The notes beneath the pieces are model-generated. The model had not been told where the DNA came from, did not search any database, and was given only the letters and a program-made list of their open reading frames with translations. 64,000 nt of DNA from a phage. Each line of letters opens with the position of its first letter. Within the stretch, counting starts at the first letter, position 1. This document shows positions 57,110 through 64,000 of the stretch, in pieces. The position numbers and the translations under genes are program-made. Location of the stretch: the sequence record PZ386958.1; one strand, written 5' to 3'.

Positions 57110-58486
57110 ATGAGCGAATTATTTAAACATGCGCACCTTCATGCAGGTCGAACTGAAAATGGTGCTGTAAACCATACTTCATCAATGTCTGCTCTTGTAG
57201 ACTTTTACAAAGCTGCTGGTTCAAGCCGTAGCAACGTAGAAATCTTACCAGACCTGTTCTACAAAGCTTTGCGTGAGGATGTTGATGTTGCAGTTCGTAT
57301 TTTGCTTCATATGCGAGATGTGCGAGAAGGTATGGGTGAGCGTAAAGCCTTCAGAACTGTTTTGCTTCAAGCAATTGAAGATAAAGTTTTAGAGCCTACA
57401 CAGGTTCTTCGCATTATGGATAAGATTGCAGAACTTGGTCGTTTTGATGACTTCAAAATCTTCGTAGGTACTCGTTTCGAGACGGATGCCTTCAAACATT
57501 TAGAAGCAGCATTACTAGACCCTGCAACAGCAGGTTTGGCAGCTAAGTGGTTACCACGAGTCAAACCACGTCATAAGCAGTTTGTAAAACGTTTCTGCAA
57601 GTTTGCCAACTTGAGTGAGAAAGAGTACCGCACACTGTTATCTGCACTGTCTGATACAGTTGAGCAAAAAATCTCTGCTAATGAGTTTGGTAAGATTGAC
57701 TACAGCAAGATTCCTTCACTTGCTGCTGCACGTTACCAAAAACTGTTTAACCGTAAAGATGGAGAACGCTACAAAGCTTATATTGAGTCTTTATCAAAAG
57801 GTGAGGCTAAGATTAACGCTGGTGCTGTTTACCCATACGATGTGATTAAGTCTATCAAGCATGGTAATGCAGATGTTGCCAATGAGCAGTGGAAAGCACT
57901 ACCAAACTGGATGGCAGAAGGTGAGAACATCTTGTGTATGACTGATGTTTCAAGCTCAATGTCTTGGGTGAATCTTGGCTCAATCACCGCCCTTGATATT
58001 GGTGTATCACTTGCCTTGTATGTAGCAGAACGCAATACAGGCTGCTTTAAGAATGAGTTAATGGTTTACTCAACAAACCCTCACTTCATCGAACTGAGTG
58101 GTGATTTACGAAATCGTCATCGTCAGGTGATGCGACACGTTGAATATGGTTCAACTAACTTACAAGCAGCTTTTGACCGCATTCTTGAGGTAGGTAAGAG
58201 AAACAACTTGACTCAGAAAGATATGCCAAGTAAGCTTATTATCTTCTCTGATATGGAGTTCAATCAGGTTGATGGTGCAAATGGTCGTACAAACTTTGAA
58301 GCAATTCAGAGTAAGTACAAAAAAGCTGGATACGAAATGCCTCAACTGGTATTCTGGTACTTAGCAAACCGTAATGGTACTTGCGAAGTGTCTGTTAAGG
58401 ATAACGGTGTAGCAATGGTATCAGGGTTCTCTCCAGCCACTTTAAAAGCTCTGCTTGGTGGTGAGAAGTTTGACCAATCAGCGTAA
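57110..58486 (+). CDS. von Willebrand factor A (vWA) domain protein with N-terminal helical domain (possible TROVE/Ro60-like or DUF2828-like)
   Basis: 458 aa; MIDAS motif DVSSS in LCMTDVSSSMSW; N-terminal 270 aa helical; directly upstream of tRNA cluster. Confidence 0.45.
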   Translation: MSELFKHAHLHAGRTENGAVNHTSSMSALVDFYKAAGSSRSNVEILPDLFYKALREDVDVAVRILLHMRDVREGMGERKAFRTVLLQAIEDKVLEPTQVLRIMDKIAELGRFDDFKIFVGTRFETDAFKHLEAALLDPATAGLAAKWLPRVKPRHKQFVKRFCKFANLSEKEYRTLLSALSDTVEQKISANEFGKIDYSKIPSLAAARYQKLFNRKDGERYKAYIESLSKGEAKINAGAVYPYDVIKSIKHGNADVANEQWKALPNWMAEGENILCMTDVSSSMSWVNLGSITALDIGVSLALYVAERNTGCFKNELMVYSTNPHFIELSGDLRNRHRQVMRHVEYGSTNLQAAFDRILEVGKRNNLTQKDMPSKLIIFSDMEFNQVDGANGRTNFEAIQSKYKKAGYEMPQLVFWYLANRNGTCEVSVKDNGVAMVSGFSPATLKALLGGEKFDQSA

Positions 58487-58540
58487 TGCTCAAAGCAGTA
58501 ATGATTGACCGTTATATCTGGTAAAAAGTTTTAAAAAGGG

Positions 58541-58575
58541 TATTGACAATGTGTTTAATACCCTTTAATATGTTC
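58541..58575 (+). promoter_or_regulatory. Promoter-like element (gggtattgacaatgtgtttaataccctttaatatg)
   Basis: TTGACA then TAATAT-like box at appropriate spacing upstream of tRNA cluster. Confidence 0.35.
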
Positions 58576-58689
58576 TACATAGAAACGAAATGAGAGCTTT
58601 TCTAAGATACTGAAAAATATTTTAAAAAAGTTCTTGACAACCACTAAAAAATAATGTTAAAGTGGTTACATAGAGTTTGAAAAGTTTAT

Positions 58690-58766
58690 CTCTGTTTAGC
58701 TCAGCTTGGTAGAGCGTTCCGTTTGGGGCGGTAAGGCCGGAGGTTCAAGTCCTCCAACAGAGACCA
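58690..58766 (+). tRNA. tRNA-Pro (anticodon TGG)
   Basis: Acceptor CTCTGTT/AACAGAG, T-arm GGAGG-TTCAAGT-CCTCC, loop TTTGGGG, 3' CCA encoded. Confidence 0.6.
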
Positions 58767-58773
58767 AATTAAT

Positions 58774-58851
58774 GTTCCAGTAGACAAAATGGTATAGTCA
58801 CCACTCTTTCAAAGTGGATATCTGAGGGTTCAAATCCCTTCTGGAACGCCA
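58774..58851 (+). tRNA. tRNA-Glu (anticodon TTC)
   Basis: Acceptor GTTCCAG/CTGGAAC, anticodon stem CCACT/AGTGG loop CTTTCAA, T-loop TTCAAAT, CCA encoded. Confidence 0.6.
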
Positions 58852-58857
58852 GTTTTG

Positions 58858-58931
58858 ACAGAAGACCAATTACAGCAAACTTAATCTTATTCATCTGAAG
58901 GTAAATCGGACAAAGAAGAGATTTGGTCTGG
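58858..58931 (+). ncRNA. Bracket stem-loop element a (ACAGAAGACCaatTACAGCAA ... tTTGGTCTGG)
   Basis: 5' AGACCAA pairs with 3' TTGGTCT; conserved TACAGCAA; one of four copies with compensatory changes. Confidence 0.45.
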
Positions 58932-58942
58932 TCATTAAGAAT

Positions 58943-59019
58943 TGCGGGTATAGAGAAAGGGCGTCTCACATGTCTCATTAGCATGGTATCGGCAGGTTCG
59001 ACTCCTGCACCCGCCTCCA
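58943..59019 (+). tRNA. tRNA with CAT anticodon (Met or Ile-lysidine)
   Basis: Anticodon stem CATGT/GCATG loop CTCATTA; T-arm GCAGG-TTCGACT-CCTGC; 1-72 mismatch; CCA encoded. Confidence 0.5.
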
Positions 59020-59024
59020 AATTT

Positions 59025-59090
59025 ACAGAAGACCGTTTACAGCAATATTTATTAAATTTTTAGCGGAAAAATTGAAAGATACGGTCTGGT
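59025..59090 (+). ncRNA. Bracket stem-loop element b
   Basis: ACAGAAGACCGTTTACAGCAA ... ACGGTCTGG; AGACCGT pairs with ACGGTCT. Confidence 0.45.
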
Positions 59091-59102
59091 AATACTAAAC
59101 AT

Positions 59103-59179
59103 GGTTAGGAAGCACATAAGGTATGTGCGGTCGCCTGTTAAGCGAATGGCACAGGGTTCGAATCCCTGACTAACCGCCA
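59103..59179 (+). tRNA. tRNA-Asn (anticodon GTT)
   Basis: Loop CTGTTAA; T-arm CAGGG-TTCGAAT-CCCTG; acceptor 3' ACTAACC-G-CCA. Confidence 0.55.
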
Positions 59180-59248
59180 AATTTAGGAGAGAAGCGATTG
59201 CTCACCGATTTGTAAGGTGCAAGTCCTTAGCCTGAATAGAAATTAAAT

Positions 59249-59336
59249 GTGTCGTTATCCCGTAGATGGTAGCGGTGGGGACTGTAAATCCCTTGTCATT
59301 GAGACTCGGTAGGTTCTACTCCTACACGGCACACCA
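59249..59336 (+). tRNA. tRNA-Tyr (anticodon GTA), long variable arm
   Basis: 88 nt; anticodon stem GGGGA/TCCCT loop CTGTAAA; acceptor GTGTCGT/ACGGCAC; CCA encoded. Confidence 0.55.
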
Positions 59337-59341
59337 ATAAA

Positions 59342-59419
59342 GGTTATGTAGTTTAATTTGGTTAAAATACTCCCCTGTCACGGGAGATGATGAGGGTTCA
59401 AATCCCTTCGTAACCGCCA
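59342..59419 (+). tRNA. tRNA-Asp (anticodon GTC)
   Basis: Anticodon stem CTCCC/GGGAG loop CTGTCAC; T-arm GAGGG-TTCAAAT-CCCTT; CCA encoded. Confidence 0.6.
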
Positions 59420-59450
59420 ATTTTGAGAGGGCTATTTAGCCCCTCCCTTA

Positions 59451-59478
59451 AATGGTTCTTACGAGTATCCTTTAAAGG
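59451..59478 (+). ncRNA. Conserved small hairpin GGTTCTTACGAG(T/A)(A/G)TCCTT(T)AAA (copy 1)
   Basis: Second copy at 62447-62474. Confidence 0.3.
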
Positions 59479-59480
59479 AG

Positions 59481-59553
59481 CAGAAGACCAAATACAGCAA
59501 GAACGTATGAAATTTCAAGCCAATTTAATTTTGAAAATTTAAACTTGGTCTGG
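59481..59553 (+). ncRNA. Bracket stem-loop element c
   Basis: CAGAAGACCAAATACAGCAA ... CTTGGTCTGG. Confidence 0.45.
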
Positions 59554-59565
59554 CTCAACAAATTT

Positions 59566-59698
59566 ACAGAAGACCGTCTACAGCAAAACTTAAACAATCT
59601 ATTTCTCCGGTAAAGAAAAGGCGAAGGTTCGATTCCTTCACTCGGCAGATGTCGAGTTGGTGTAATGGTAGCACTTAAGATGATAAACAACGGTCTGG
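59566..59698 (+). ncRNA. Bracket element d enclosing a permuted tRNA-like module (T-arm, acceptor-like hairpin, D-arm); candidate Y-RNA-like ncRNA
   Basis: Closing stem AGACCGT(C)/ACGGTCT; inside: GAAGG-TTCGATT-CCTTC, hairpin ACTCGGC-AGAT-GTCGAGT, then TGGTGTAATGGTAGCAC; no anticodon arm. Confidence 0.45.
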
Positions 59699-59701
59699 TA
59701 A

Positions 59702-59841
59702 TTATCTTTGTAGATAAGTTATTAAGCTTACCTGTGAGTATGCGACCACAAAGGGTGAAAGGGTAAATTCTAGATTTAAACCCAAAAAGGCACATCGCTA
59801 CAGACCTTAAGCAAGTCTGGGTAGCTTATCTACAAAGATAA
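59702..59841 (+). ncRNA. Structured element closed by a perfect 17-bp inverted repeat (TTATCTTTGTAGATAAG / CTTATCTACAAAGATAA)
   Basis: Enclosed ~106 nt has internal hairpins (CAGACCTTAAGCAAGTCTG; AGCTTACC...GGTAGCTT); no ORF. Confidence 0.4.
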
Positions 59842-59847
59842 TTTAAT

Positions 59848-59923
59848 GGAAGTGTAGCAGAATGGTGATGCGGCAGACTTTTAATCTGACAGGCGATGGG
59901 TTCGAATCCCTCCACTTCTACCA
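59848..59923 (+). tRNA. tRNA-Lys (anticodon TTT)
   Basis: Acceptor GGAAGTG/CACTTCT; D-loop AGCAGAATGGTGATGC; loop CTTTTAA; T-loop TTCGAAT; CCA encoded. Confidence 0.55.
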
Positions 59924-59927
59924 AAAT

Positions 59928-60004
59928 GGTTCAGTCGCAGATAAGGTAATGCAGGGGTCTCATAAGCCCTATGAATGTGGGTTCGATTCCCATCTGAACC
60001 TCCA
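59928..60004 (+). tRNA. tRNA with CAT anticodon (second copy; Met or Ile-lysidine)
   Basis: Acceptor GGTTCAG/CTGAACC; anticodon stem GGGGT/GCCCT loop CTCATAA; T-loop TTCGATT; CCA encoded. Confidence 0.5.
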
Positions 60005-60006
60005 AT

Positions 60007-60081
60007 TGTGGGTTAGCATAAATGGTAATGCAAACGGCTGATAACCGTTAGAAGAGGGTTCGATACCCTCACCTACAACCA
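60007..60081 (+). tRNA. tRNA-Ile (anticodon GAT)
   Basis: Anticodon stem AACGG/CCGTT loop CTGATAA; T-arm GAGGG-TTCGATA-CCCTC; CCA encoded. Confidence 0.6.
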
Positions 60082-60095
60082 ATTTCAATAAAGTT

Positions 60096-60130
60096 GTTGA
60101 CATTAAGATGTGACTACTTTATAGTAACCT
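60096..60130 (+). promoter_or_regulatory. Sigma70-like promoter inside tRNA cluster (gttgacattaagatgtgactactttatagtaacc)
   Basis: TTGACA - 17 nt - TATAGT. Confidence 0.5.
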
Positions 60131-60328
60131 TAGTTTTCGTTGCGTAGCGTCTATTTTGCAAATTTAAAATAAATGCAAACGACAATGTTTTTCTGGCAGT
60201 AGCTTGATAGGCTAAACACCAGTGAGGTCTTCCAATCCCTCATCAAAGAATTTGGCGTACTCGCCCACGGTATGATTAATAAGGTGGGCATCTTTAAGGG
60301 CTTTCTAAGAGAGTCTTTAAAGATTAAT

Positions 60329-60403
60329 GCTCCGTTAGTCTAAAGGATAGGCATCTGTCTTCTAAACAGATTGATATAGGTTCGAGTCCTATACGGAGTG
60401 CCA
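60329..60403 (+). tRNA. tRNA-Arg (anticodon TCT)
   Basis: Acceptor GCTCCGT/ACGGAGT; anticodon stem TCTGT/ACAGA loop CTTCTAA; T-loop TTCGAGT; CCA encoded. Confidence 0.6.
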
Positions 60404-60519
60404 TATTTAGAGTGTCTCCAAATGGAGGTGGTCTGTATCTCATGTTTTCCAGAACATGTAAATAATCTGAGAAGGGGCTTTACAGTGTTGAGATAATACG
60501 GTAAGCTTCGAATTATAAT

Positions 60520-60602
60520 ATGGGACGATGTTAAGACTCTAAGGCATGAGCAACGGCTTCCAACACCGTTTCAAAGGGGTTCAACTCCTCCGTCCCATGC
60601 CA
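60520..60602 (+). tRNA. Atypical 83-nt tRNA (possible anticodon CCA, Trp) or tRNA-like gene
   Basis: Acceptor ATGGGAC/GTCCCAT and T-arm AGGGG-TTCAACT-CCTCC clear, CCA encoded; D/anticodon region too long and folds ambiguously. Confidence 0.35.
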
Positions 60603-60615
60603 AAGTCTTATTAGG

Positions 60616-60703
60616 GGTAGGTAGCGGCTAATGGTAGCCAAACTGTCTTGAAAACAGTTGCCACTGTAGAGATACGGTGAGGGTTCGACTCCTTTACTTA
60701 CCG
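60616..60703 (+). tRNA. tRNA-Ser (anticodon TGA), long variable arm; CCA apparently not encoded
   Basis: Anticodon stem ACTGT/ACAGT loop CTTGAAA; long extra arm; T-arm GAGGG-TTCGACT-CCTTT; acceptor 3' ACTTACC-G then CCT. Confidence 0.45.
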
Positions 60704-60859
60704 CCTAATAAGATTTTAAAGCCAAGCTTCATTCGGATGTTGCTTTGGCATCCCTCGTGTTGTCGTACACACTAATAAAGCACCTAGTAGGTGTCATGGA
60801 GAAGAGATAATATCAAGCTCTCCAAAGGTTCTAGTCACCGGATTAAACAAGACTATGCA

Positions 60860-60880
60860 AAGACCAATTTAGGTCTTTTT
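60860..60880 (+). terminator. Hairpin plus T-run (aagaccaatttaggtcttttt)
   Basis: Stem AGACC/GGTCT followed by TTTTT within tRNA cluster. Confidence 0.45.
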
Positions 60881-60959
60881 AGAGGGCTTCTAAGGTTATT
60901 ACAGCTTGTTGTGGAACCTTGTTGCTTAGGTTCTTAGAAGTTCTCTAAAAAGATTTAAT

Positions 60960-61036
60960 GCACCTATAGCCCAACTGGTAGAGGCAGCAGACTTAGAATC
61001 TGCTCAGTGTGAGTTCGAATCTCTCTAGGTGTACCA
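60960..61036 (+). tRNA. tRNA with anticodon TAG (Leu-decoding), short variable arm
   Basis: Acceptor GCACCTA/TAGGTGT; anticodon stem GCAGA/TCTGC loop CTTAGAA; T-loop TTCGAAT; CCA encoded. Confidence 0.45.
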
Positions 61037-61043
61037 AATTAAT

Positions 61044-61119
61044 GCAGGTGTAGCAGAATGGTGATGCGGCTGACTCTTAATCAGTAAGACGATGGGTTCA
61101 ATTCCCTCCACCTGTACCA
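61044..61119 (+). tRNA. tRNA-Lys (anticodon CTT)
   Basis: Paralog of 59848-59923; loop CTCTTAA; acceptor GCAGGTG/CACCTGT; CCA encoded. Confidence 0.55.
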
Positions 61120-61125
61120 AACATT

Positions 61126-61201
61126 GGGGATGTAGTTTACATGGTTAAAACATAAGTTTTGCAAACTTAAGTACAGGGTTCAATTCCCTGCTTCTCCACC
61201 A
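61126..61201 (+). tRNA. tRNA-Ala (anticodon TGC)
   Basis: Anticodon stem TAAGT/ACTTA loop TTTGCAA; G3:U70 wobble in acceptor; T-arm CAGGG-TTCAATT-CCCTG; CCA encoded. Confidence 0.55.
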
Positions 61202-61207
61202 ATTAGT

Positions 61208-61282
61208 GCATCCATAGTTTAAACGGGAAAATTACAGTCTTCCAAACTGAGGTTGAGGGTTCGATTCCCTCTGGATGCTCCA
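61208..61282 (+). tRNA. tRNA-Gly (anticodon TCC)
   Basis: Acceptor GCATCCA/TGGATGC; loop CTTCCAA; T-loop TTCGATT; CCA encoded. Confidence 0.6.
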
Positions 61283-61288
61283 AATAAA

Positions 61289-61365
61289 GCTGCTTTCGTA
61301 TAATTGGCTATTACACATCCCTTGTAAGGATGGAAATGCAGGTTCGAGTCCTGTGAGCAGCACCA
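61289..61365 (+). tRNA. tRNA-Thr (anticodon TGT)
   Basis: Acceptor GCTGCTT/GAGCAGC; anticodon stem CATCC/GGATG loop CTTGTAA; T-loop TTCGAGT; CCA encoded. Confidence 0.6.
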
Positions 61366-61367
61366 AT

Positions 61368-61455
61368 TCAGAGGTCAAGTGAAAGACCGCTGGTGTCAAC
61401 TGAAGACCGTAACAAATTCCACGGAGTTGAGTTAGCGGCACAACTTCAGACCTCT
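61368..61455 (+). ncRNA. Structured non-tRNA element with nested stems (CAGAGGTC...GACCTCT outer stem)
   Basis: Inner pairs TCAACT/AGTTGA and CCGCTG/AGCGG; contains bracket-like GAAGACCG; no ORF. Confidence 0.35.
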
Positions 61456-61460
61456 TTCAC

Positions 61461-61541
61461 ACTCGCTTAGTTTATATGGTAAAACATCACCCTTACAAGA
61501 TGAAGATGAAGAAAAAGGTTCAAGTCCTTTAGTGAGTACCA
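61461..61541 (+). tRNA. tRNA-like gene, atypical (possible anticodon TAC, Val) with enlarged variable region
   Basis: Acceptor ACTCGCT/AGTGAGT, T-arm AAAGG-TTCAAGT-CCTTT, CCA encoded; anticodon stem has a C-A mismatch. Confidence 0.35.
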
Positions 61542-61542
61542 T

Positions 61543-61620
61543 GTTCCAGTATCCCAATTGGCAGAGGATGCAAGCTCAAACCTTGTATTAGTGACGGTTC
61601 GAATCCGTCTTGGAACACCA
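61543..61620 (+). tRNA. tRNA with anticodon CAA (Leu-decoding), short variable arm
   Basis: Acceptor GTTCCAG/TTGGAAC; anticodon stem GCAAG/CTTGT loop CTCAAAC; T-loop TTCGAAT; CCA encoded. Confidence 0.45.
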
Positions 61621-61638
61621 ATTTAAAGAGGCTATTTA

Positions 61639-62196
61639 ATGAGATATTTGAAGTACGCTTCATGGATTTTCTTAGCTTTACTAGACCCAATTGCAGCAAC
61701 CCTAGCAGTTATCTTAGCACCTTTCGTAGTTCCATTCTACAGTGAAAAGAAAGGACACTTACCTTTTGGATTCAGATGGATGGAGACTTATGACAACCCG
61801 ATTGATGGTGATGAAGGCCACGTTAAAAGATGGGCTAAGATTAGAAAGATTGGTAAGCTTGGTGTCTACATGCAGAGAGTTGGATGGCTCTGGAGAAACA
61901 AAGCTTATAACTTCTCTTACCATGTATTAGGAAGAGATGTAAAAGATGTTACTAAGTGGAAAGGTAATATCAACGTAAGTTCTAACCCTGAAGATAATCA
62001 GACTGGTTATCTCCTAATGTGGAACAGTAATGCTTGGGGATTATTCGCTTTTATCCCATCAATTAAAGTCTTTGGTAAACAGTTTTACTGGAGAATTTAT
62101 ATTGGATGGAAACTAAAAAGTGTTGTCCCAGAAGAAAGAGCATTCTCAAGGGAAAGAGTTATGTTGGCATTCTTTATTCATCCACTGAGAAAGTAA
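61639..62196 (+). CDS. Membrane protein embedded in tRNA cluster
   Basis: 185 aa; hydrophobic N-terminus WIFLALLDPIAATLAVILAPFVVPF; flanked by tRNA genes. Confidence 0.45.
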   Translation: MRYLKYASWIFLALLDPIAATLAVILAPFVVPFYSEKKGHLPFGFRWMETYDNPIDGDEGHVKRWAKIRKIGKLGVYMQRVGWLWRNKAYNFSYHVLGRDVKDVTKWKGNINVSSNPEDNQTGYLLMWNSNAWGLFAFIPSIKVFGKQFYWRIYIGWKLKSVVPEERAFSRERVMLAFFIHPLRK

Positions 62197-62204
62197 AGAT
62201 TTAA

Positions 62205-62280
62205 AGGGGATTAGTTTACAAGGTTAAAACCTCGGTCTTTGAAATCGAAGAAGTTGGTTCAATTCCAACATCCCCCGCCA
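62205..62280 (+). tRNA. tRNA-Gln (anticodon TTG)
   Basis: Anticodon stem TCGGT/ATCGA loop CTTTGAA; T-arm GTTGG-TTCAATT-CCAAC; 1-72 mismatch; CCA encoded. Confidence 0.5.
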
Positions 62281-62282
62281 AT

Positions 62283-62361
62283 GCTCCATTACTCCAATTG
62301 GCAGAGAGGCCAGACTTAAAATCTGTGTTATGTATCGGTTCGAATCCGATATGGAGTACCA
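62283..62361 (+). tRNA. tRNA with anticodon TAA (Leu-decoding), short variable arm
   Basis: Acceptor GCTCCAT/ATGGAGT; loop CTTAAAA; T-arm ATCGG-TTCGAAT-CCGAT; CCA encoded. Confidence 0.45.
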
Positions 62362-62366
62362 AATTT

Positions 62367-62442
62367 AGCGGTATAGCATAACTGGCAATGCAGCAGTCTC
62401 TGAAGCTGTCTTATTAAGGTTCAAATCCTTATGCCGCTGCCA
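62367..62442 (+). tRNA. tRNA-Gln (anticodon CTG)
   Basis: Acceptor AGCGGTA/TGCCGCT; loop CTCTGAA; T-arm TAAGG-TTCAAAT-CCTTA; CCA encoded. Confidence 0.5.
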
Positions 62443-62446
62443 CTTC

Positions 62447-62474
62447 TAAGGGTTCTTACGAGAGTCCTTAAATG
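62447..62474 (+). ncRNA. Conserved small hairpin TAAGGGTTCTTACGAGAGTCCTTAAATG (copy 2)
   Basis: Stem TAAGG/CCTTA; same loop as 59451-59478. Confidence 0.3.
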
Positions 62475-62549
62475 TGGCCTTATCATAAATGGTAATGACC
62501 CATGCTGTGAACATGGTCTATACGGGTTCAAATCCCGTAGGTCACCCCA
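62474..62549 (+). tRNA. tRNA-His (anticodon GTG)
   Basis: Acceptor GTGGCCT/AGGTCAC; anticodon stem CCATG/CATGG loop CTGTGAA; T-arm ACGGG-TTCAAAT-CCCGT; CCA encoded. Confidence 0.6.
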
Positions 62550-62554
62550 ATTTA

Positions 62555-62631
62555 TAGTCCAAGTAGCTTATATGGTTAAAGCGCGTGTCTGAAAAACATG
62601 AGAAGAGGGTTCAAATCCCACTGGACTACCA
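62555..62631 (+). tRNA. tRNA-Phe (anticodon GAA)
   Basis: Anticodon stem CGTGT/ACATG loop CTGAAAA; T-loop TTCAAAT; acceptor AGTCCAA/CTGGACT (one mismatch); CCA encoded. Confidence 0.5.
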
Positions 62632-62647
62632 ATTTCAAAGGTGCTTA

Positions 62648-63382
62648 ATGAAAGAGATGACAGAACAAGGTAAGGAGATTTTTAATCTCTTAAAAACCGG
62701 TAGAGGGTTTTCTAATCCCCTTATTACTGGTGCAGCAGTTCTAGGTGGAACCGTGGCTGCCTCTACATCACTTGTAAGCTCTATTAGCTCTGTAACAGAC
62801 CCTACAATAAAGGATAAACTTATTGCTGCTGGACTTACAACAGTTCTGCTTAATAGCTTTACAACGAGTCTGACAAGCACTACATCAACTACTAAGACCC
62901 TAACAGACTATGGTCAAAAGTCTATTGATGAGTTTTCATCACGTATGCAGGTAGCAAAGGGATACTCCAATGTTATGGGTGCAGCAGGAGAACAAGTCGG
63001 TTGTACACCATTCAGTGGTATTATGGGTGTTGCTACAGAGTATGGTCAAAAAGCTATTGATATGATTAACAGTGCACTAGACGGTGTTAATGATGTATTA
63101 AGTGACTTACAAGACGCTATTGACAAAGGTCTTGATACTATTTCTGATTTAGCTAACCAAGCTGTTAGTAAGATTAATGAAGGTATCTCGAAGATTACAG
63201 CTTATGCAGATGAAGTTGTGCAGATGATTGAAGAAGAAGCTGCCCTTATTGCAGAGTACCTTAAAACGAATATCAATGGGTTCTTAGCAGGTATCTTACC
63301 AGACTGGTTTGATGATGCTTGTAAAACTGGTGTAATTGATACTATTGCAACACCAGAAATGAAGAACGCATTACAGAAATAA
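62648..63382 (+). CDS. Hypothetical protein embedded in tRNA cluster (Ser/Thr-rich N-terminal region)
   Basis: Start MKEMTEQGKE chosen downstream of tRNA-Phe (track ORF 62585 would overlap the tRNA); about 244 aa. Confidence 0.45.
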   Translation: MKEMTEQGKEIFNLLKTGRGFSNPLITGAAVLGGTVAASTSLVSSISSVTDPTIKDKLIAAGLTTVLLNSFTTSLTSTTSTTKTLTDYGQKSIDEFSSRMQVAKGYSNVMGAAGEQVGCTPFSGIMGVATEYGQKAIDMINSALDGVNDVLSDLQDAIDKGLDTISDLANQAVSKINEGISKITAYADEVVQMIEEEAALIAEYLKTNINGFLAGILPDWFDDACKTGVIDTIATPEMKNALQK

Positions 63383-63383
63383 T

Positions 63384-63476
63384 GGAAGATTAACCCTAAA
63401 AGGTAAGGGAGCAGTTTGCTAAACTGCCAGTAGCTGAGAAATCGGTGTACCAGTTCAAGTCTGGTATCTTCCTCCA
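63384..63476 (+). tRNA. tRNA-Ser (anticodon GCT), long variable arm
   Basis: Acceptor GGAAGAT/ATCTTCC; anticodon stem GCAGT/ACTGC loop TTGCTAA; long extra arm; T-arm ACCAG-TTCAAGT-CTGGT; CCA encoded. Confidence 0.55.
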
Positions 63477-63480
63477 ATTT

Positions 63481-63556
63481 GAATCCGTGACAGAAATGGC
63501 TATGTGCCTGTCTGCAAAACAGGTTTATAAGGGTTCGAGTCCCTTCGGATTCTCCA
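63481..63556 (+). tRNA. tRNA-Cys (anticodon GCA)
   Basis: Acceptor GAATCCG/CGGATTC (perfect); anticodon stem CCTGT/ACAGG loop CTGCAAA; T-arm AAGGG-TTCGAGT-CCCTT; CCA encoded. Confidence 0.6.
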
Positions 63557-63593
63557 ATTTATTTTACTCTCTCTCAATTAAAATAATAATAAT

Positions 63594-63653
63594 GCCCTGC
63601 TATAAGTATTCTTCCTTTCGCTACCGAAGAGTATTTTTAGACAGGGCTTTTTT
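63594..63653 (+). terminator. Long hairpin terminator (GCCCTG ... CAGGGC + TTTTTT) ending the tRNA cluster
   Basis: Outer stem GCCCTG/CAGGGC followed by TTTTTT. Confidence 0.5.
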
Positions 63654-63778
63654 ACAGAGTTATACTTTATAGGAAGACTTATACAGTATGTCTCTGACGT
63701 ACATTGTGGTTTCTCCTTGACGGTCTCTGTGCCGTCTTTTTTAAGGGGAAACAATATTAATTATTTGGAGAAAACATA

Positions 63779-63979
63779 ATGAGCGAGAACGTTTATAAAG
63801 AACTTTATGAAGCTAACAAGAAGCTAGAGTTTATGCAGAATACTATCATGGCAATTGCAGACAGACTATCTGTAGCAACAGGTATTGATATTAAAGAAGC
63901 ATCTATGGATGCACTTCTTGATGCTGTTGATGCAAAGTTCGAAGTTAAGAAAGAAGAGACTGCTACAGACTCTGAATAA
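63779..63979 (+). CDS. Hypothetical small acidic protein
   Basis: 66-aa ORF preceded by GGAG. Confidence 0.4.
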   Translation: MSENVYKELYEANKKLEFMQNTIMAIADRLSVATGIDIKEASMDALLDAVDAKFEVKKEETATDSE

Positions 63980-64000
63980 TTCTATTTGCGGAGGTGCTTA

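What the first reader, a model, noticed from the sequence alone, without database searches (positions are those of the whole stretch)
59702..59841. Perfect 17-bp inverted repeat closing a ~106-nt structured, non-coding segment
TTATCTTTGTAGATAAG (59702-59718) and its exact reverse complement CTTATCTACAAAGATAA (59825-59841) flank a segment with further internal hairpins. A 17-bp perfect stem is far longer than needed for a terminator and is unusual in an AT-rich phage genome. It sits between bracket element d and tRNA-Lys. Candidates are a stable small RNA, a processing substrate or a protein recognition site.
Basis: seen in the sequence. Interest (0 to 1): 0.45.

Follow-up and report, generated by a model that had tools for sequence, protein, structure and literature searches.

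The report
Long-stem RNA beside phage Ro60 gene
The inverted repeat is real and closes a conserved ~144-nt structured non-coding RNA in the tRNA cluster of a Felix O1-type phage, 1.2 kb downstream of a phage Ro60-like gene, so it is most likely one of that protein's previously unidentified Y-RNA-like partners.

Summary
The perfect repeat is 19 bp (59700-59718 / 59825-59843) and extends to a 24-bp RNA helix using three G.U pairs that exist only on the + strand, the strand of all 25 tRNAs. None of 100 shuffles of the window gave a 17-mer inverted repeat within 200 nt.

The window is a Felixounavirus. The same architecture occurs in seven lineages, down to 53% protein identity in the neighbouring gene. 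Each has a 22-25-bp closing stem of unrelated sequence and a 94-126-nt variable interior. The last internal hairpin has a 9-nt YYUNNGCAA loop flush against the 3' arm. Each lies 0-10 nt upstream of tRNA-Lys(UUU).

That hairpin is a minimal copy of the "bracket" repeat core. The core motif sits next to DUF2828-type genes in 44 of 82 divergent phage loci, on the gene's strand (87 hits against 3 on the other strand). The gene at 57110-58486 has the Ro60/TROVE+vWA fold. Bracket d has the architecture of the tRNA-mimicking Y RNA YrlA.

Best reading: a Y-RNA-like RNA excised from the tRNA precursor (confidence about 0.45). Main rival, not exclusive: an RNase III processing stem. Expression and protein binding are untested.

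The parts
59700..59723 (+). 5' arm of the closing helix (AAUUAUCUUUGUAGAUAAGUUAUU). The first 19 nt form the perfect inverted repeat.
   Evidence: covariation
59820..59843 (+). 3' arm of the closing helix (GGUAGCUUAUCUACAAAGAUAAUU). The last 19 nt form the perfect repeat. It ends 4 nt before tRNA-Lys.
   Evidence: 8 of the 22 stem pairs (10 of all 27 scored pairs) show changes on both sides, 99.4% of cells paired, 0/500 shuffles reach this
59728..59758 (+). Internal hairpin 1. It is predicted only, and its sequence differs between the type A and type B versions.
59761..59783 (+). Internal hairpin 2. AUUCUAGAUU is invariant in types A and B. It contains the palindrome UCUAGA at 59771-59776; lineage L188 has ACUAGU instead.
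59801..59819 (+). 'Mini-bracket' hairpin CAGAC-CUUAAGCAA-GUCUG, the last internal hairpin, flush against the 3' arm. It is a minimal copy of the bracket core (AG..helix, ..GCAA loop, ..CU-G).
   Evidence: helix covaries GC to AU and AU to UA; ten copies in six of the seven lineages pair this hairpin with an outer duplex of -29 to -31 kcal/mol; the two chance hits give -16 to -17
59848..59923 (+). tRNA-Lys(UUU), 4 nt downstream. RNase P cleavage at its 5' end would define the 3' end of the element (inferred).
   Evidence: adjacency of 0-10 nt in all seven lineages
59565..59702 (+). Bracket d, directly upstream. It is a stem-bulge-stem enclosing a tRNA-like domain in the order V hairpin, T arm, capped acceptor stem, D arm, which is the YrlA-type architecture.
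57110..58486 (+). Ro60-like protein gene (DUF2828 + DUF7788; TROVE-like helical ring plus vWA domain). It is the proposed protein partner.
   Evidence: Bas63 gp130

Best explanation
The inverted repeat is the 24-bp terminal helix of a ~144-nt structured non-coding RNA (59700-59843, + strand). It is co-transcribed with the phage tRNAs. It belongs to a set of Y-RNA-like RNAs encoded just downstream of the phage's Ro60 homologue.

Proposed working, with each step marked:

(1) The RNA is made as part of the tRNA precursor that starts at the promoters near 58.55-58.66 kb (inferred from promoter and terminator scans).

(2) RNase P cleavage at the 5' end of tRNA-Lys, 4 nt downstream, sets its 3' end. 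A cut between it and bracket d, or RNase III within the stem, sets its 5' end (inferred).

(3) The long helix joins the two ends, as in Y RNAs, and shields the RNA from 3'-to-5' exonucleases (inferred).

(4) The last internal hairpin stacks directly on that helix. It is a minimal copy of the motif that accompanies DUF2828-type Ro60 homologues across many phages, and it is the docking site for the Ro60-like protein. The gene-motif association is shown; binding is inferred.

(5) The variable 75-nt interior is the lineage-specific effector part (inferred).
For: A real, selected RNA structure on the + strand:
- The helix is 24 bp with three G.U pairs that would be A.C mismatches on the other strand.
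- In 13 alignable sequences 99.4% of cells are paired and 10 of 27 pairs show compensatory double changes. 0/500 shuffles reach this, and slid controls give 29-45% paired.
- Three further lineages (L105, L189, L190) have unrelated stem sequences but the same architecture and position.

Context:
- All 25 tRNAs are on the + strand. No promoter or + strand terminator is predicted between 58.66 and 60.08 kb.
- The ORF at 57110-58486 is DUF2828+DUF7788 and PHROG 850 'RNA-binding protein'. Its AF2 model (pLDDT 80) finds Ro60/Rsr/phage Ro60 as the 12 best PDB matches (E about 1e-8, TM 0.5-0.66). Mycobacteriophage relatives are annotated 'Ro-like RNA binding protein'.
- The bracket core AG(N4-6)..CAGCAA..(N4-6)CU-G lies on the gene's strand in 44 of 82 divergent loci. 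That is 87 hits against 3 on the opposite strand, clustered within about 600 nt of the gene.
- The mini-bracket in the element keeps the AG start, the GCAA loop end and the CU-G end.
- Bracket d has the V-T-AS-D order of YrlA, and its acceptor stem covaries.
- Erwinia phage Omen, in the same subfamily, lacks the Ro60-like gene, the brackets and the element together.
- Y RNAs lie within 4 kb of Ro60 on the same strand (PMC4201824). A preprint already suspected Y RNAs among the Bas63 tRNA genes.
Against: - There is no evidence of expression, of the RNA's ends, or of binding.
- The long stem lacks the Y-RNA motif GNCGAAN0-1G / CGAA.
- The mini-bracket loop (AAGCAA, UAGCAA or AUGCAA) departs from the CAGCAA of the full brackets.
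- The element family is much narrower than the protein family. It is absent from L113-L187 and L191, so it is not an obligatory partner.
- Bas63 gp130 alone protects T7 from the ppl defence system, so at least that activity does not need these RNAs.
- At 144 nt it is slightly above the usual 80-130 nt of Y RNAs.
- The co-absence in Kolesnikvirus is a single phylogenetic event.
Confidence: 0.45

Rival explanations
1. The helix is a pure processing signal. It is an RNase III substrate of about two helical turns that cuts the polycistronic precursor, separating the upstream Y-like RNAs from tRNA-Lys/Met/Ile. The excised interior has no function of its own. This reading is compatible with, and may coexist with, the best explanation.
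For: Stem length is held at 22-25 bp in every lineage while its sequence is free, as expected for length-dependent recognition of double-stranded RNA. The position is always flush with a tRNA 5' end. A second long-stem element (60868-60958, about 29 bp) also sits directly before a tRNA, tRNA-Leu at 60960. Established knowledge: E. coli RNase III cleaves helices of about 20 bp or more that flank rRNAs and phage T7 early RNAs.
Against: A bare processing stem does not explain two conserved features. One is the mini-bracket hairpin with its loop sequence, conserved in all seven lineages. The other is the invariant AUUCUAGAUU inside types A and B. Other tRNA junctions in the same cluster need no such stem, with spacers of only 3-10 nt. 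RNase III cleavage itself was not tested.
Confidence: 0.25
2. It is a stable structured RNA whose function is tied to tRNA-Lys(UUU) rather than to the Ro60-like protein. Examples are a leader that controls tRNA-Lys maturation, or a decoy or shield against host nucleases that attack tRNA-Lys.
For: The element stays linked to tRNA-Lys(UUU) in all seven lineages while its upstream neighbour changes: tRNA-Asp plus brackets in some, tRNA-Ala plus tRNA-like RNAs in others. From general knowledge, tRNA-Lys(UUU) is a known target of host anticodon nucleases, and phage tRNAs are thought to counter them.
Against: Synteny among related phages can explain the linkage. Phages L113 and L191 carry tRNA-Lys(UUU) and the Ro60-like gene without the element. 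Erwinia phage Omen carries tRNA-Lys genes without it. The element contains no tRNA-Lys-like sequence.
Confidence: 0.2
3. It is a DNA-level element: terminal inverted repeats of a miniature mobile element, a recombinase or homing-endonuclease site, or a cruciform.
For: There is a perfect 19-bp DNA palindrome pair. Homing endonuclease genes do insert in this tRNA region in relatives such as CRP22.
Against: In type B the exact DNA repeat shrinks to 14 bp while the RNA helix stays at 23 bp through G.U pairs. Each genome has one copy at a fixed site (198 places in 195 records; no second copy in the window). There is no target-site duplication, and no empty site was found among the relatives examined. 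Stem sequences drift by compensatory changes.
Confidence: 0.04
4. It is an intrinsic transcription terminator or attenuator.
For: It is a strong hairpin-type structure inside a transcription unit.
Against: The helix is AU-rich with a 96-nt interior, and no U tract follows it (UAAUGGAAG). The terminator scan does not list it. Three tRNA genes follow with no promoter before 60097.
Confidence: 0.02

Closest known systems
Bacterial and phage Y RNAs (YrlA/YrlB of Salmonella and mycobacteriophages, PMC4201824; Yrl1/Yrl2 of Thermus phage phiLo, PMC12135203)
   Same: It is encoded within 4 kb of a Ro60 homologue on the same strand. Its 5' and 3' ends pair into a long stem that closes a large internal loop. 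It has a stem-bulge-stem module. The neighbouring RNA (bracket d) mimics tRNA in the YrlA order V-T-AS-D.
   Different: The protein is the DUF2828 type, not a Pfam TROVE hit, and was recognised only by fold. The conserved RNA motif is AG..CAGCAA..CU-G, not GNCGAAN0-1G / CGAA. In this element the motif is a separate hairpin stacked on the stem rather than part of the stem. The RNAs sit inside a tRNA operon. No binding has been shown.
Phage T4 stable RNAs rnaC (species 1) and rnaD (species 2) in the T4 tRNA cluster
   Same: They are small, stable, structured RNAs of 119-139 nt of unknown function, encoded among phage tRNA genes and presumably cut out of the tRNA precursor.
   Different: There is no similarity in sequence or fold. 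rnaC ends in a T-arm and acceptor-like stem, and neither RNA has a 24-bp terminal helix or the GCAA hairpin. No Ro60-like gene lies in the 4 kb fetched around the T4 tRNA cluster (annotation).
RNase III processing stems (flanks of 16S/23S rRNA, T7 early RNA sites)
   Same: A helix of about two turns is formed by sequences that flank a functional RNA within a polycistronic precursor.
   Different: The enclosed RNA is only 96 nt. Cleavage has not been shown. The conserved internal hairpin is not expected for a mere processing site.

Membership tests
Y RNA (general definition, PMC4201824 / PMC12135203) | Encoded close to (within about 4 kb of) a Ro60 orthologue, on the same strand | tested here: met
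   The element starts 1.2 kb downstream of the stop of the Ro60-fold ORF 57110-58486, on the same strand.
Y RNA (general definition, PMC4201824 / PMC12135203) | 5' and 3' ends pair into a long stem that closes a large internal loop; size 80-130 nt | tested here: met
   A 24-bp terminal helix encloses 96 nt and is supported by covariation. The size of 144 nt is slightly above the usual range.
Y RNA (general definition, PMC4201824 / PMC12135203) | Ro60-binding motif GNCGAAN0-1G / CGAA in a bulged part of the stem near the 5' end | tested here: not met
   Neither arm contains CGAA or GNCGAA. The related brackets carry C-A-GAAG, which has one extra A. The element carries only the mini-bracket CAGAC..GCAA..GUCUG.
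Y RNA (general definition, PMC4201824 / PMC12135203) | Bound by the Ro60 protein in vivo or in vitro | not testable with these tools
   This needs RIP/CLIP or EMSA with the gp130-type protein.
YrlA (tRNA-mimicking Y RNA) | T-arm and D-arm look-alikes with an acceptor-like stem-loop between them | tested here: not met
   The element 59700-59843 has no tRNA-model match and no D/T pair. The neighbouring bracket d (59565-59702) does have this layout.
RNase III substrate | Continuous double-stranded RNA of about 20 bp or more | tested here: met
   The window has 24 bp without a bulge, and the six other lineages have 22-25 bp.
RNase III substrate | Staggered cleavage by RNase III | not testable with these tools
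   This needs an in-vitro cleavage assay, or mapping of RNA ends in rnc mutants.
Intrinsic terminator | Short G+C-rich hairpin followed by a U tract | tested here: not met
   The scan does not list it, and the downstream sequence is UAAUGGAAG.
Miniature inverted-repeat mobile element | Several copies, target-site duplication, and presence/absence polymorphism | tested here: not met
   There is a single copy per genome at one site, no flanking duplication, and the stems evolve by compensatory change.
Any Rfam 15 family | Covariance-model match | tested here: not met
   Nothing overlaps 59700-59843 at E <= 10.

The most novel reading that the evidence does not exclude
The brackets and this long-stem RNA together define an undescribed class of phage Y-like RNAs of the 'AG..CAGCAA..CU-G' type. 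These RNAs partner with DUF2828-type Ro60 homologues in dozens of unrelated phage lineages. The long-stem member is an Ounavirinae-specific variant that physically couples the Ro60 particle to the maturation or protection of tRNA-Lys(UUU), a tRNA that host anticodon nucleases target.
Probability: 0.3. Interest if true: 0.75.

Novelty: new variant of a known kind. Interest (0 to 1): 0.58.

Why it matters
A Ro60-like protein of a Felixounavirus (Bas63 gp130) was recently shown to counter a bacterial defence system. Its authors could only guess that some neighbouring 'tRNA genes' might be Y RNAs (10.1101/2024.10.10.617714).

This analysis supplies concrete candidates with coordinates. There are four bracket RNAs, one of them a YrlA-type tRNA mimic, plus this long-stem RNA. 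It also supplies a short conserved hairpin motif that tracks DUF2828-type Ro60 genes across many phages.

That makes the question 'what RNAs do phage Ro60 proteins use, and for what?' directly testable by RIP-seq, EMSA and small deletions. It would also extend Y-RNA biology to a motif and an operon context not described before.

If the element is only an RNase III processing stem, it is of modest interest.

Tried and rejected
- Rfam 15 at E <= 1 over 58000-64000 and at E <= 10 over 59420-59850 gave nothing on the element or on the brackets. The only hit was a partial tRNA match inside bracket d.

- Self-cleaving ribozyme: I compared the bracket by eye with the hairpin ribozyme. It did not fit and there was no Rfam hit, so I dropped the idea.

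- Permuted or two-piece tmRNA reading of bracket d plus the element. ARAGORN found no tmRNA. The open frame inside the element is not conserved between types A and B, which differ by indels and stops.

- Protein coding: only short ORFs overlap the element, and none is conserved. The FelixO1 'ORF94' on the minus strand overlaps tRNA-like sequence.

- T4 rnaC and rnaD were fetched and folded. They are not similar.

- A PDB sequence search with the neighbouring protein found nothing. Only the fold search was informative.

- Covariance model R1, built from types A and B, found L188 (71 bits) and weakly L189 (E 0.09). It missed L105 and L190, which were recognised by position, folding and the hairpin-plus-duplex scan.

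- The alignment made by the model search (A3) mixed in antisense hits and was not used.

- The supplement of PMC4201824 with YrlA sequences is not held, so no direct model comparison with YrlA was possible.

- Literature searches for Felix O1 non-coding RNA or transcriptomes found nothing relevant.

Full report
**Observation.** The repeat finder reports arms 59700-59721 and 59822-59843 at 95% complementarity. My own scan shows that the exact repeat is 19 bp, 59700-59718 against 59825-59843. It is the only 17-mer inverted repeat within 200 nt in the whole 64-kb window. None of 100 dinucleotide-preserving shuffles produced one.

Folded as RNA, the + strand gives -48.3 kcal/mol (z = -5.9). It forms a 24-bp closing helix and four internal hairpins. 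The minus strand folds less well (-44.8 kcal/mol, z = -4.3). The inner five pairs of the helix include three G.U pairs, which would be A.C mismatches on the other strand.

**Where it lies.** The window is a Felixounavirus. The element is 100% identical to Salmonella phage Felix O1 and is present at 95% identity or more in 190 phage records. It sits in a cluster of 25 tRNA genes, all on the + strand, 4 nt upstream of tRNA-Lys(UUU). Two good promoter-like sites lie at 58543-58663 and the next good one at 60097. No + strand terminator-like site lies between them. The element is therefore most likely part of a polycistronic tRNA precursor. That is an inference; no transcript data were found.

**It is not a known RNA family, a gene or a terminator.** Rfam 15 gives nothing at E <= 10. 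Only short ORFs overlap the element, and none is conserved. The helix is AU-rich, encloses 96 nt and is not followed by a U tract.

**Conservation and covariation.**
- A diverged 'type B' version occupies the same site in Salmonella phage Seyj1-1, Escherichia phages JLBYU32 and CRP22, Citrobacter phage Mordin (Mooglevirus) and several IMG/VR contigs.
- A third version is in contig L188.
- On 13 alignable sequences, the 27 pairs of the closing helix and the last hairpin are paired in 99.4% of cells. Ten pairs show changes on both sides. 0 of 500 shuffles reach these values. Sliding the partner by 1-3 columns drops pairing to 29-45%, with at most two such pairs.
- In type B the exact DNA repeat is only 14 bp, yet the RNA helix remains 23 bp through G.U pairs.
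- Three more distant phages have stems with no sequence resemblance to the Felix O1 stem: Yersinia phage P778 = L105, plus L189 and L190. Their neighbouring protein is 53-56% identical to the window's.
- All seven lineages share the same plan: a 22-25-bp closing helix, a 94-126-nt interior, and a final hairpin of 5-6 bp with a 9-nt loop YYU[ACU][AUG]GCAA. That hairpin abuts the 3' arm, and the whole element ends 0-10 nt before tRNA-Lys(UUU).
- A scan for that hairpin with a strong flanking duplex recovers ten copies from six of the lineages, including the window (-29 to -31 kcal/mol), plus two weak chance hits (-16 to -17) in about 0.9 Mb. Types B (Mordin, Seyj1-1) were outside this scan and came.

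The structure is therefore under selection as RNA on the + strand.

**The neighbourhood gives the lead.**
- an outer helix of 3-4 bp;
- a 3-nt by 1-nt internal loop;
- a 7-bp helix AGACCnn/nnGGUCU;
- a loop that begins UWCAGCAA and then holds a variable insert.

They lie at 58857-58933, 59024-59091, 59479-59555 and 59565-59700. In bracket d the insert is a complete tRNA-like domain in permuted order: a variable-arm-like hairpin, a canonical T arm, an acceptor stem capped by a short loop, then a D arm. Its acceptor stem covaries between Felix O1 (GUCGAGU/ACUCGGC) and Mordin (GAAGGGU/ACCCUUC). This is the V-T-AS-D architecture reported for YrlA, the tRNA-mimicking bacterial Y RNA that binds the Ro60 orthologue Rsr (PMC4201824).

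**The neighbouring protein.** The ORF directly upstream of the tRNA cluster, 57110-58486 on the same strand, matches Pfam DUF2828 and DUF7788 and PHROG 850 'RNA-binding protein'. Evidence that it is a Ro60 homologue:
- A sequence search of the PDB finds nothing.
- An AlphaFold2 model from a 30-sequence alignment (mean pLDDT 80) has Ro60 proteins as its twelve best Foldseek matches, over the full length. These are D. radiodurans Rsr, Xenopus and human Ro60, and Thermus phage phiLo Ro60 (E about 1e-8, TM 0.5-0.66).
- The family occurs in 710 phage records, including mycobacteriophage proteins annotated 'Ro-like RNA binding protein'.
- A preprint on the Felixounavirus Bas63 reports that its gp130 resembles Ro60 and lies directly upstream of the tRNA genes. 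It counters the ppl defence system, and 'some tRNA genes ... are possibly Y RNAs'. No such RNA was identified there.

**The bracket core tracks this protein family.** In 82 loci around homologues of 39-63% identity from many phage types, I searched for the pattern AG(N4-6), 2-4 nt, CAGCAA, up to 240 nt, the complementary (N4-6)CU, then G. It occurs 87 times in 44 loci on the gene's strand, against 3 times in 2 loci on the opposite strand. Most hits lie within about 600 nt of the gene. The helix sequence differs in nearly every lineage while AG/CU-G and CAGCAA stay fixed. This is strong comparative evidence that the brackets are the RNA partners of these Ro60 homologues. They differ from canonical Y RNAs, whose motif is GNCGAAN0-1G or CGAA.

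**How the element relates to the brackets.** Its last hairpin is C-AGAC-CUUAAGCAA-GUCU-G in the window, AGACC-CUUUAGCAA-GGUCU-G in type B, and AAGUC-CCUUAGCAA-GACUU in P778. It has the AG start, the GCAA loop end and the CU-G end of the bracket core, but no insert. Its helix is continuous on the 3' strand with the 24-bp closing helix. The element can thus be read as a bracket with three changes. The outer helix has grown from 4 to 24 bp. The small 5' bulge has become a 75-nt structured domain. The apical insert is gone. [quoted passage not shown]

**Co-occurrence.** Erwinia phage Omen belongs to the same subfamily (genus Kolesnikvirus). It has a similar tRNA cluster but lacks the Ro60-like gene (whole-genome tblastn, best E 0.16). 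It also lacks the brackets and the element.

**Explanation.** I favour (0.45) a Y-RNA-like small RNA that is cut out of the tRNA precursor. RNase P cleavage at tRNA-Lys would set its 3' end. The long helix would join and protect the two ends. The mini-bracket hairpin would dock it to the Ro60-like protein.
- Shown: the structure, its strand, its conservation, the Ro60 fold of the neighbouring protein, and the gene-motif association.
- Inferred: transcription, processing, stability, binding and any downstream function.
- Against: the canonical Ro60 motif is absent. The mini-bracket loop is not CAGCAA. The element family is far narrower than the protein family. gp130 alone rescues T7 from ppl.

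**Rivals.**
It is supported by the conserved helix length, by the flush position before a tRNA, and by a second long-stem element at 60868-60958 directly before tRNA-Leu. It does not explain the conserved internal hairpin.
- A function tied to tRNA-Lys(UUU) (0.2). It is suggested by the invariant linkage while the upstream neighbours change.
- DNA-level readings and a terminator are unlikely (0.04 and 0.02) for the reasons given in their entries.

**Comparison with known systems.** The closest are bacterial and phage Y RNAs. The element works like one in layout and genomic context, but it fails the sequence-motif criterion and binding is untested. I therefore do not file it as a proven member. 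T4 rnaC and rnaD share only the context. I rate it a new variant of a known kind.

**Interest.** 0.58. The repeat alone would be a modest curiosity. It leads, however, to a concrete and testable set of candidate Y-like RNAs for a phage Ro60 anti-defence protein, and to a motif that generalises across many phages.

Noticed in passing
window 57110-58486 (+): The ORF directly upstream of the tRNA cluster (DUF2828 + DUF7788, PHROG 850) has the Ro60/TROVE+vWA fold. Its 12 best PDB matches are all Ro60 proteins. It is the homologue of Bas63 gp130, a reported counter of the ppl defence system.
   Followed up: yes
window 58857-58933, 59024-59091, 59479-59555, 59565-59700 (+): Four 'bracket' RNAs share one plan: outer helix, 3x1 internal loop, helix AGACCnn/nnGGUCU, then a loop starting UWCAGCAA with a variable insert. 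The core motif lies on the gene's strand next to DUF2828 genes in 44 of 82 divergent phage loci (87 hits against 3 on the other strand). They are candidate Y-like RNAs.
   Followed up: partly
window 59590-59678 (+), inside bracket d: A circularly permuted tRNA-like domain: V hairpin, canonical T arm GAAGGUUCGAUUCCUUC, an acceptor stem capped by AGAU, then D arm GUGUAAUGGUAGCAC. This is the YrlA architecture. The acceptor stem covaries in Citrobacter phage Mordin, where GCCA follows it.
   Followed up: partly
window 60868-60958 (+): A second long-stem element (about 29 bp, -37.6 kcal/mol) ends 1 nt before tRNA-Leu(UAG) at 60960. Its interior contains UUACAGC, reminiscent of the bracket loop.
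   Followed up: no
window 60520-60603 (+): A tRNA-like gene that ARAGORN does not call at default settings. It has an 8-bp acceptor stem, a T arm GGGGUUCAACUCCUCC, a 3' GCCA, and an anticodon-like arm with a 9-nt loop containing CCA. It has no normal D arm. It could be an odd tRNA-Trp or another tRNA mimic.
   Followed up: no
window 60024-60328 (+): Weak sub-threshold Rfam hits to permuted tmRNA (33 bits, E 5e-4) and to tmRNA (16 bits). They span tRNA-Ile and a 250-nt gap that holds the best promoter-like site of the region (TTGACA-17-TATAGT at 60097-60125). ARAGORN finds no tmRNA.
   Followed up: no
window 59771-59776 (+), within 59761-59783: The palindrome UCUAGA, within the invariant AUUCUAGAUU, sits at the tip of internal hairpin 2 in types A and B. 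Lineage L188 has the different palindrome ACUAGU at the same place. This could be a kissing-loop or dimerisation site.
   Followed up: no
window 59423-59478 (+): Two conserved hairpins lie right after tRNA-Asp (GAGGGCUAUUUAGCCCCUC and a 13-bp AU-rich one). They are also present in Mordin, Seyj1-1 and L188, just before bracket c.
   Followed up: no
window 59180-59248 (+): The spacer between tRNA-Asn and tRNA-Tyr contains a T-arm-like piece (GGUGCAAGUCC), possibly a decayed tRNA or tRNA-like RNA.
   Followed up: no
L105 (Yersinia phage vB_YenM_P778) 9010-9165 and 9233-9390: Two tRNA-like RNAs have normal acceptor and T arms but insertions of 60-100 nt. They lie between tRNA-Ala and the P778 version of the long-stem element.
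   Followed up: no
L006 (Erwinia phage Omen) 2187-2366: An 18-bp near-perfect inverted repeat (AAAACUUUAAUGGUCUGG / CCAGAGCCAUUAAAGUUUU) encloses about 140 nt between tRNA-Ala and tRNA-fMet. This phage has no Ro60-like gene. The stretch is annotated as a 53-aa hypothetical protein.
   Followed up: no
L005 (Escherichia phage CRP22) 660-1148: An HNH homing endonuclease gene is inserted between tRNA-Tyr and tRNA-Asp. The tRNA cluster is a target for mobile endonucleases.
   Followed up: no
records GU169904.1 (Staphylococcus phage SA1) and MG065664.1 (Campylobacter phage A132): Both records carry 97-99% identical Felix O1-type tRNA-cluster sequence. This looks like contamination or chimeric assembly in the deposited genomes.
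   Followed up: no
window 58523-58549 and 58614-58640 (+): A duplicated 27-nt block ending in TTGACAA gives two tandem promoter-like sites 91 nt apart, upstream of the first tRNA.
   Followed up: no
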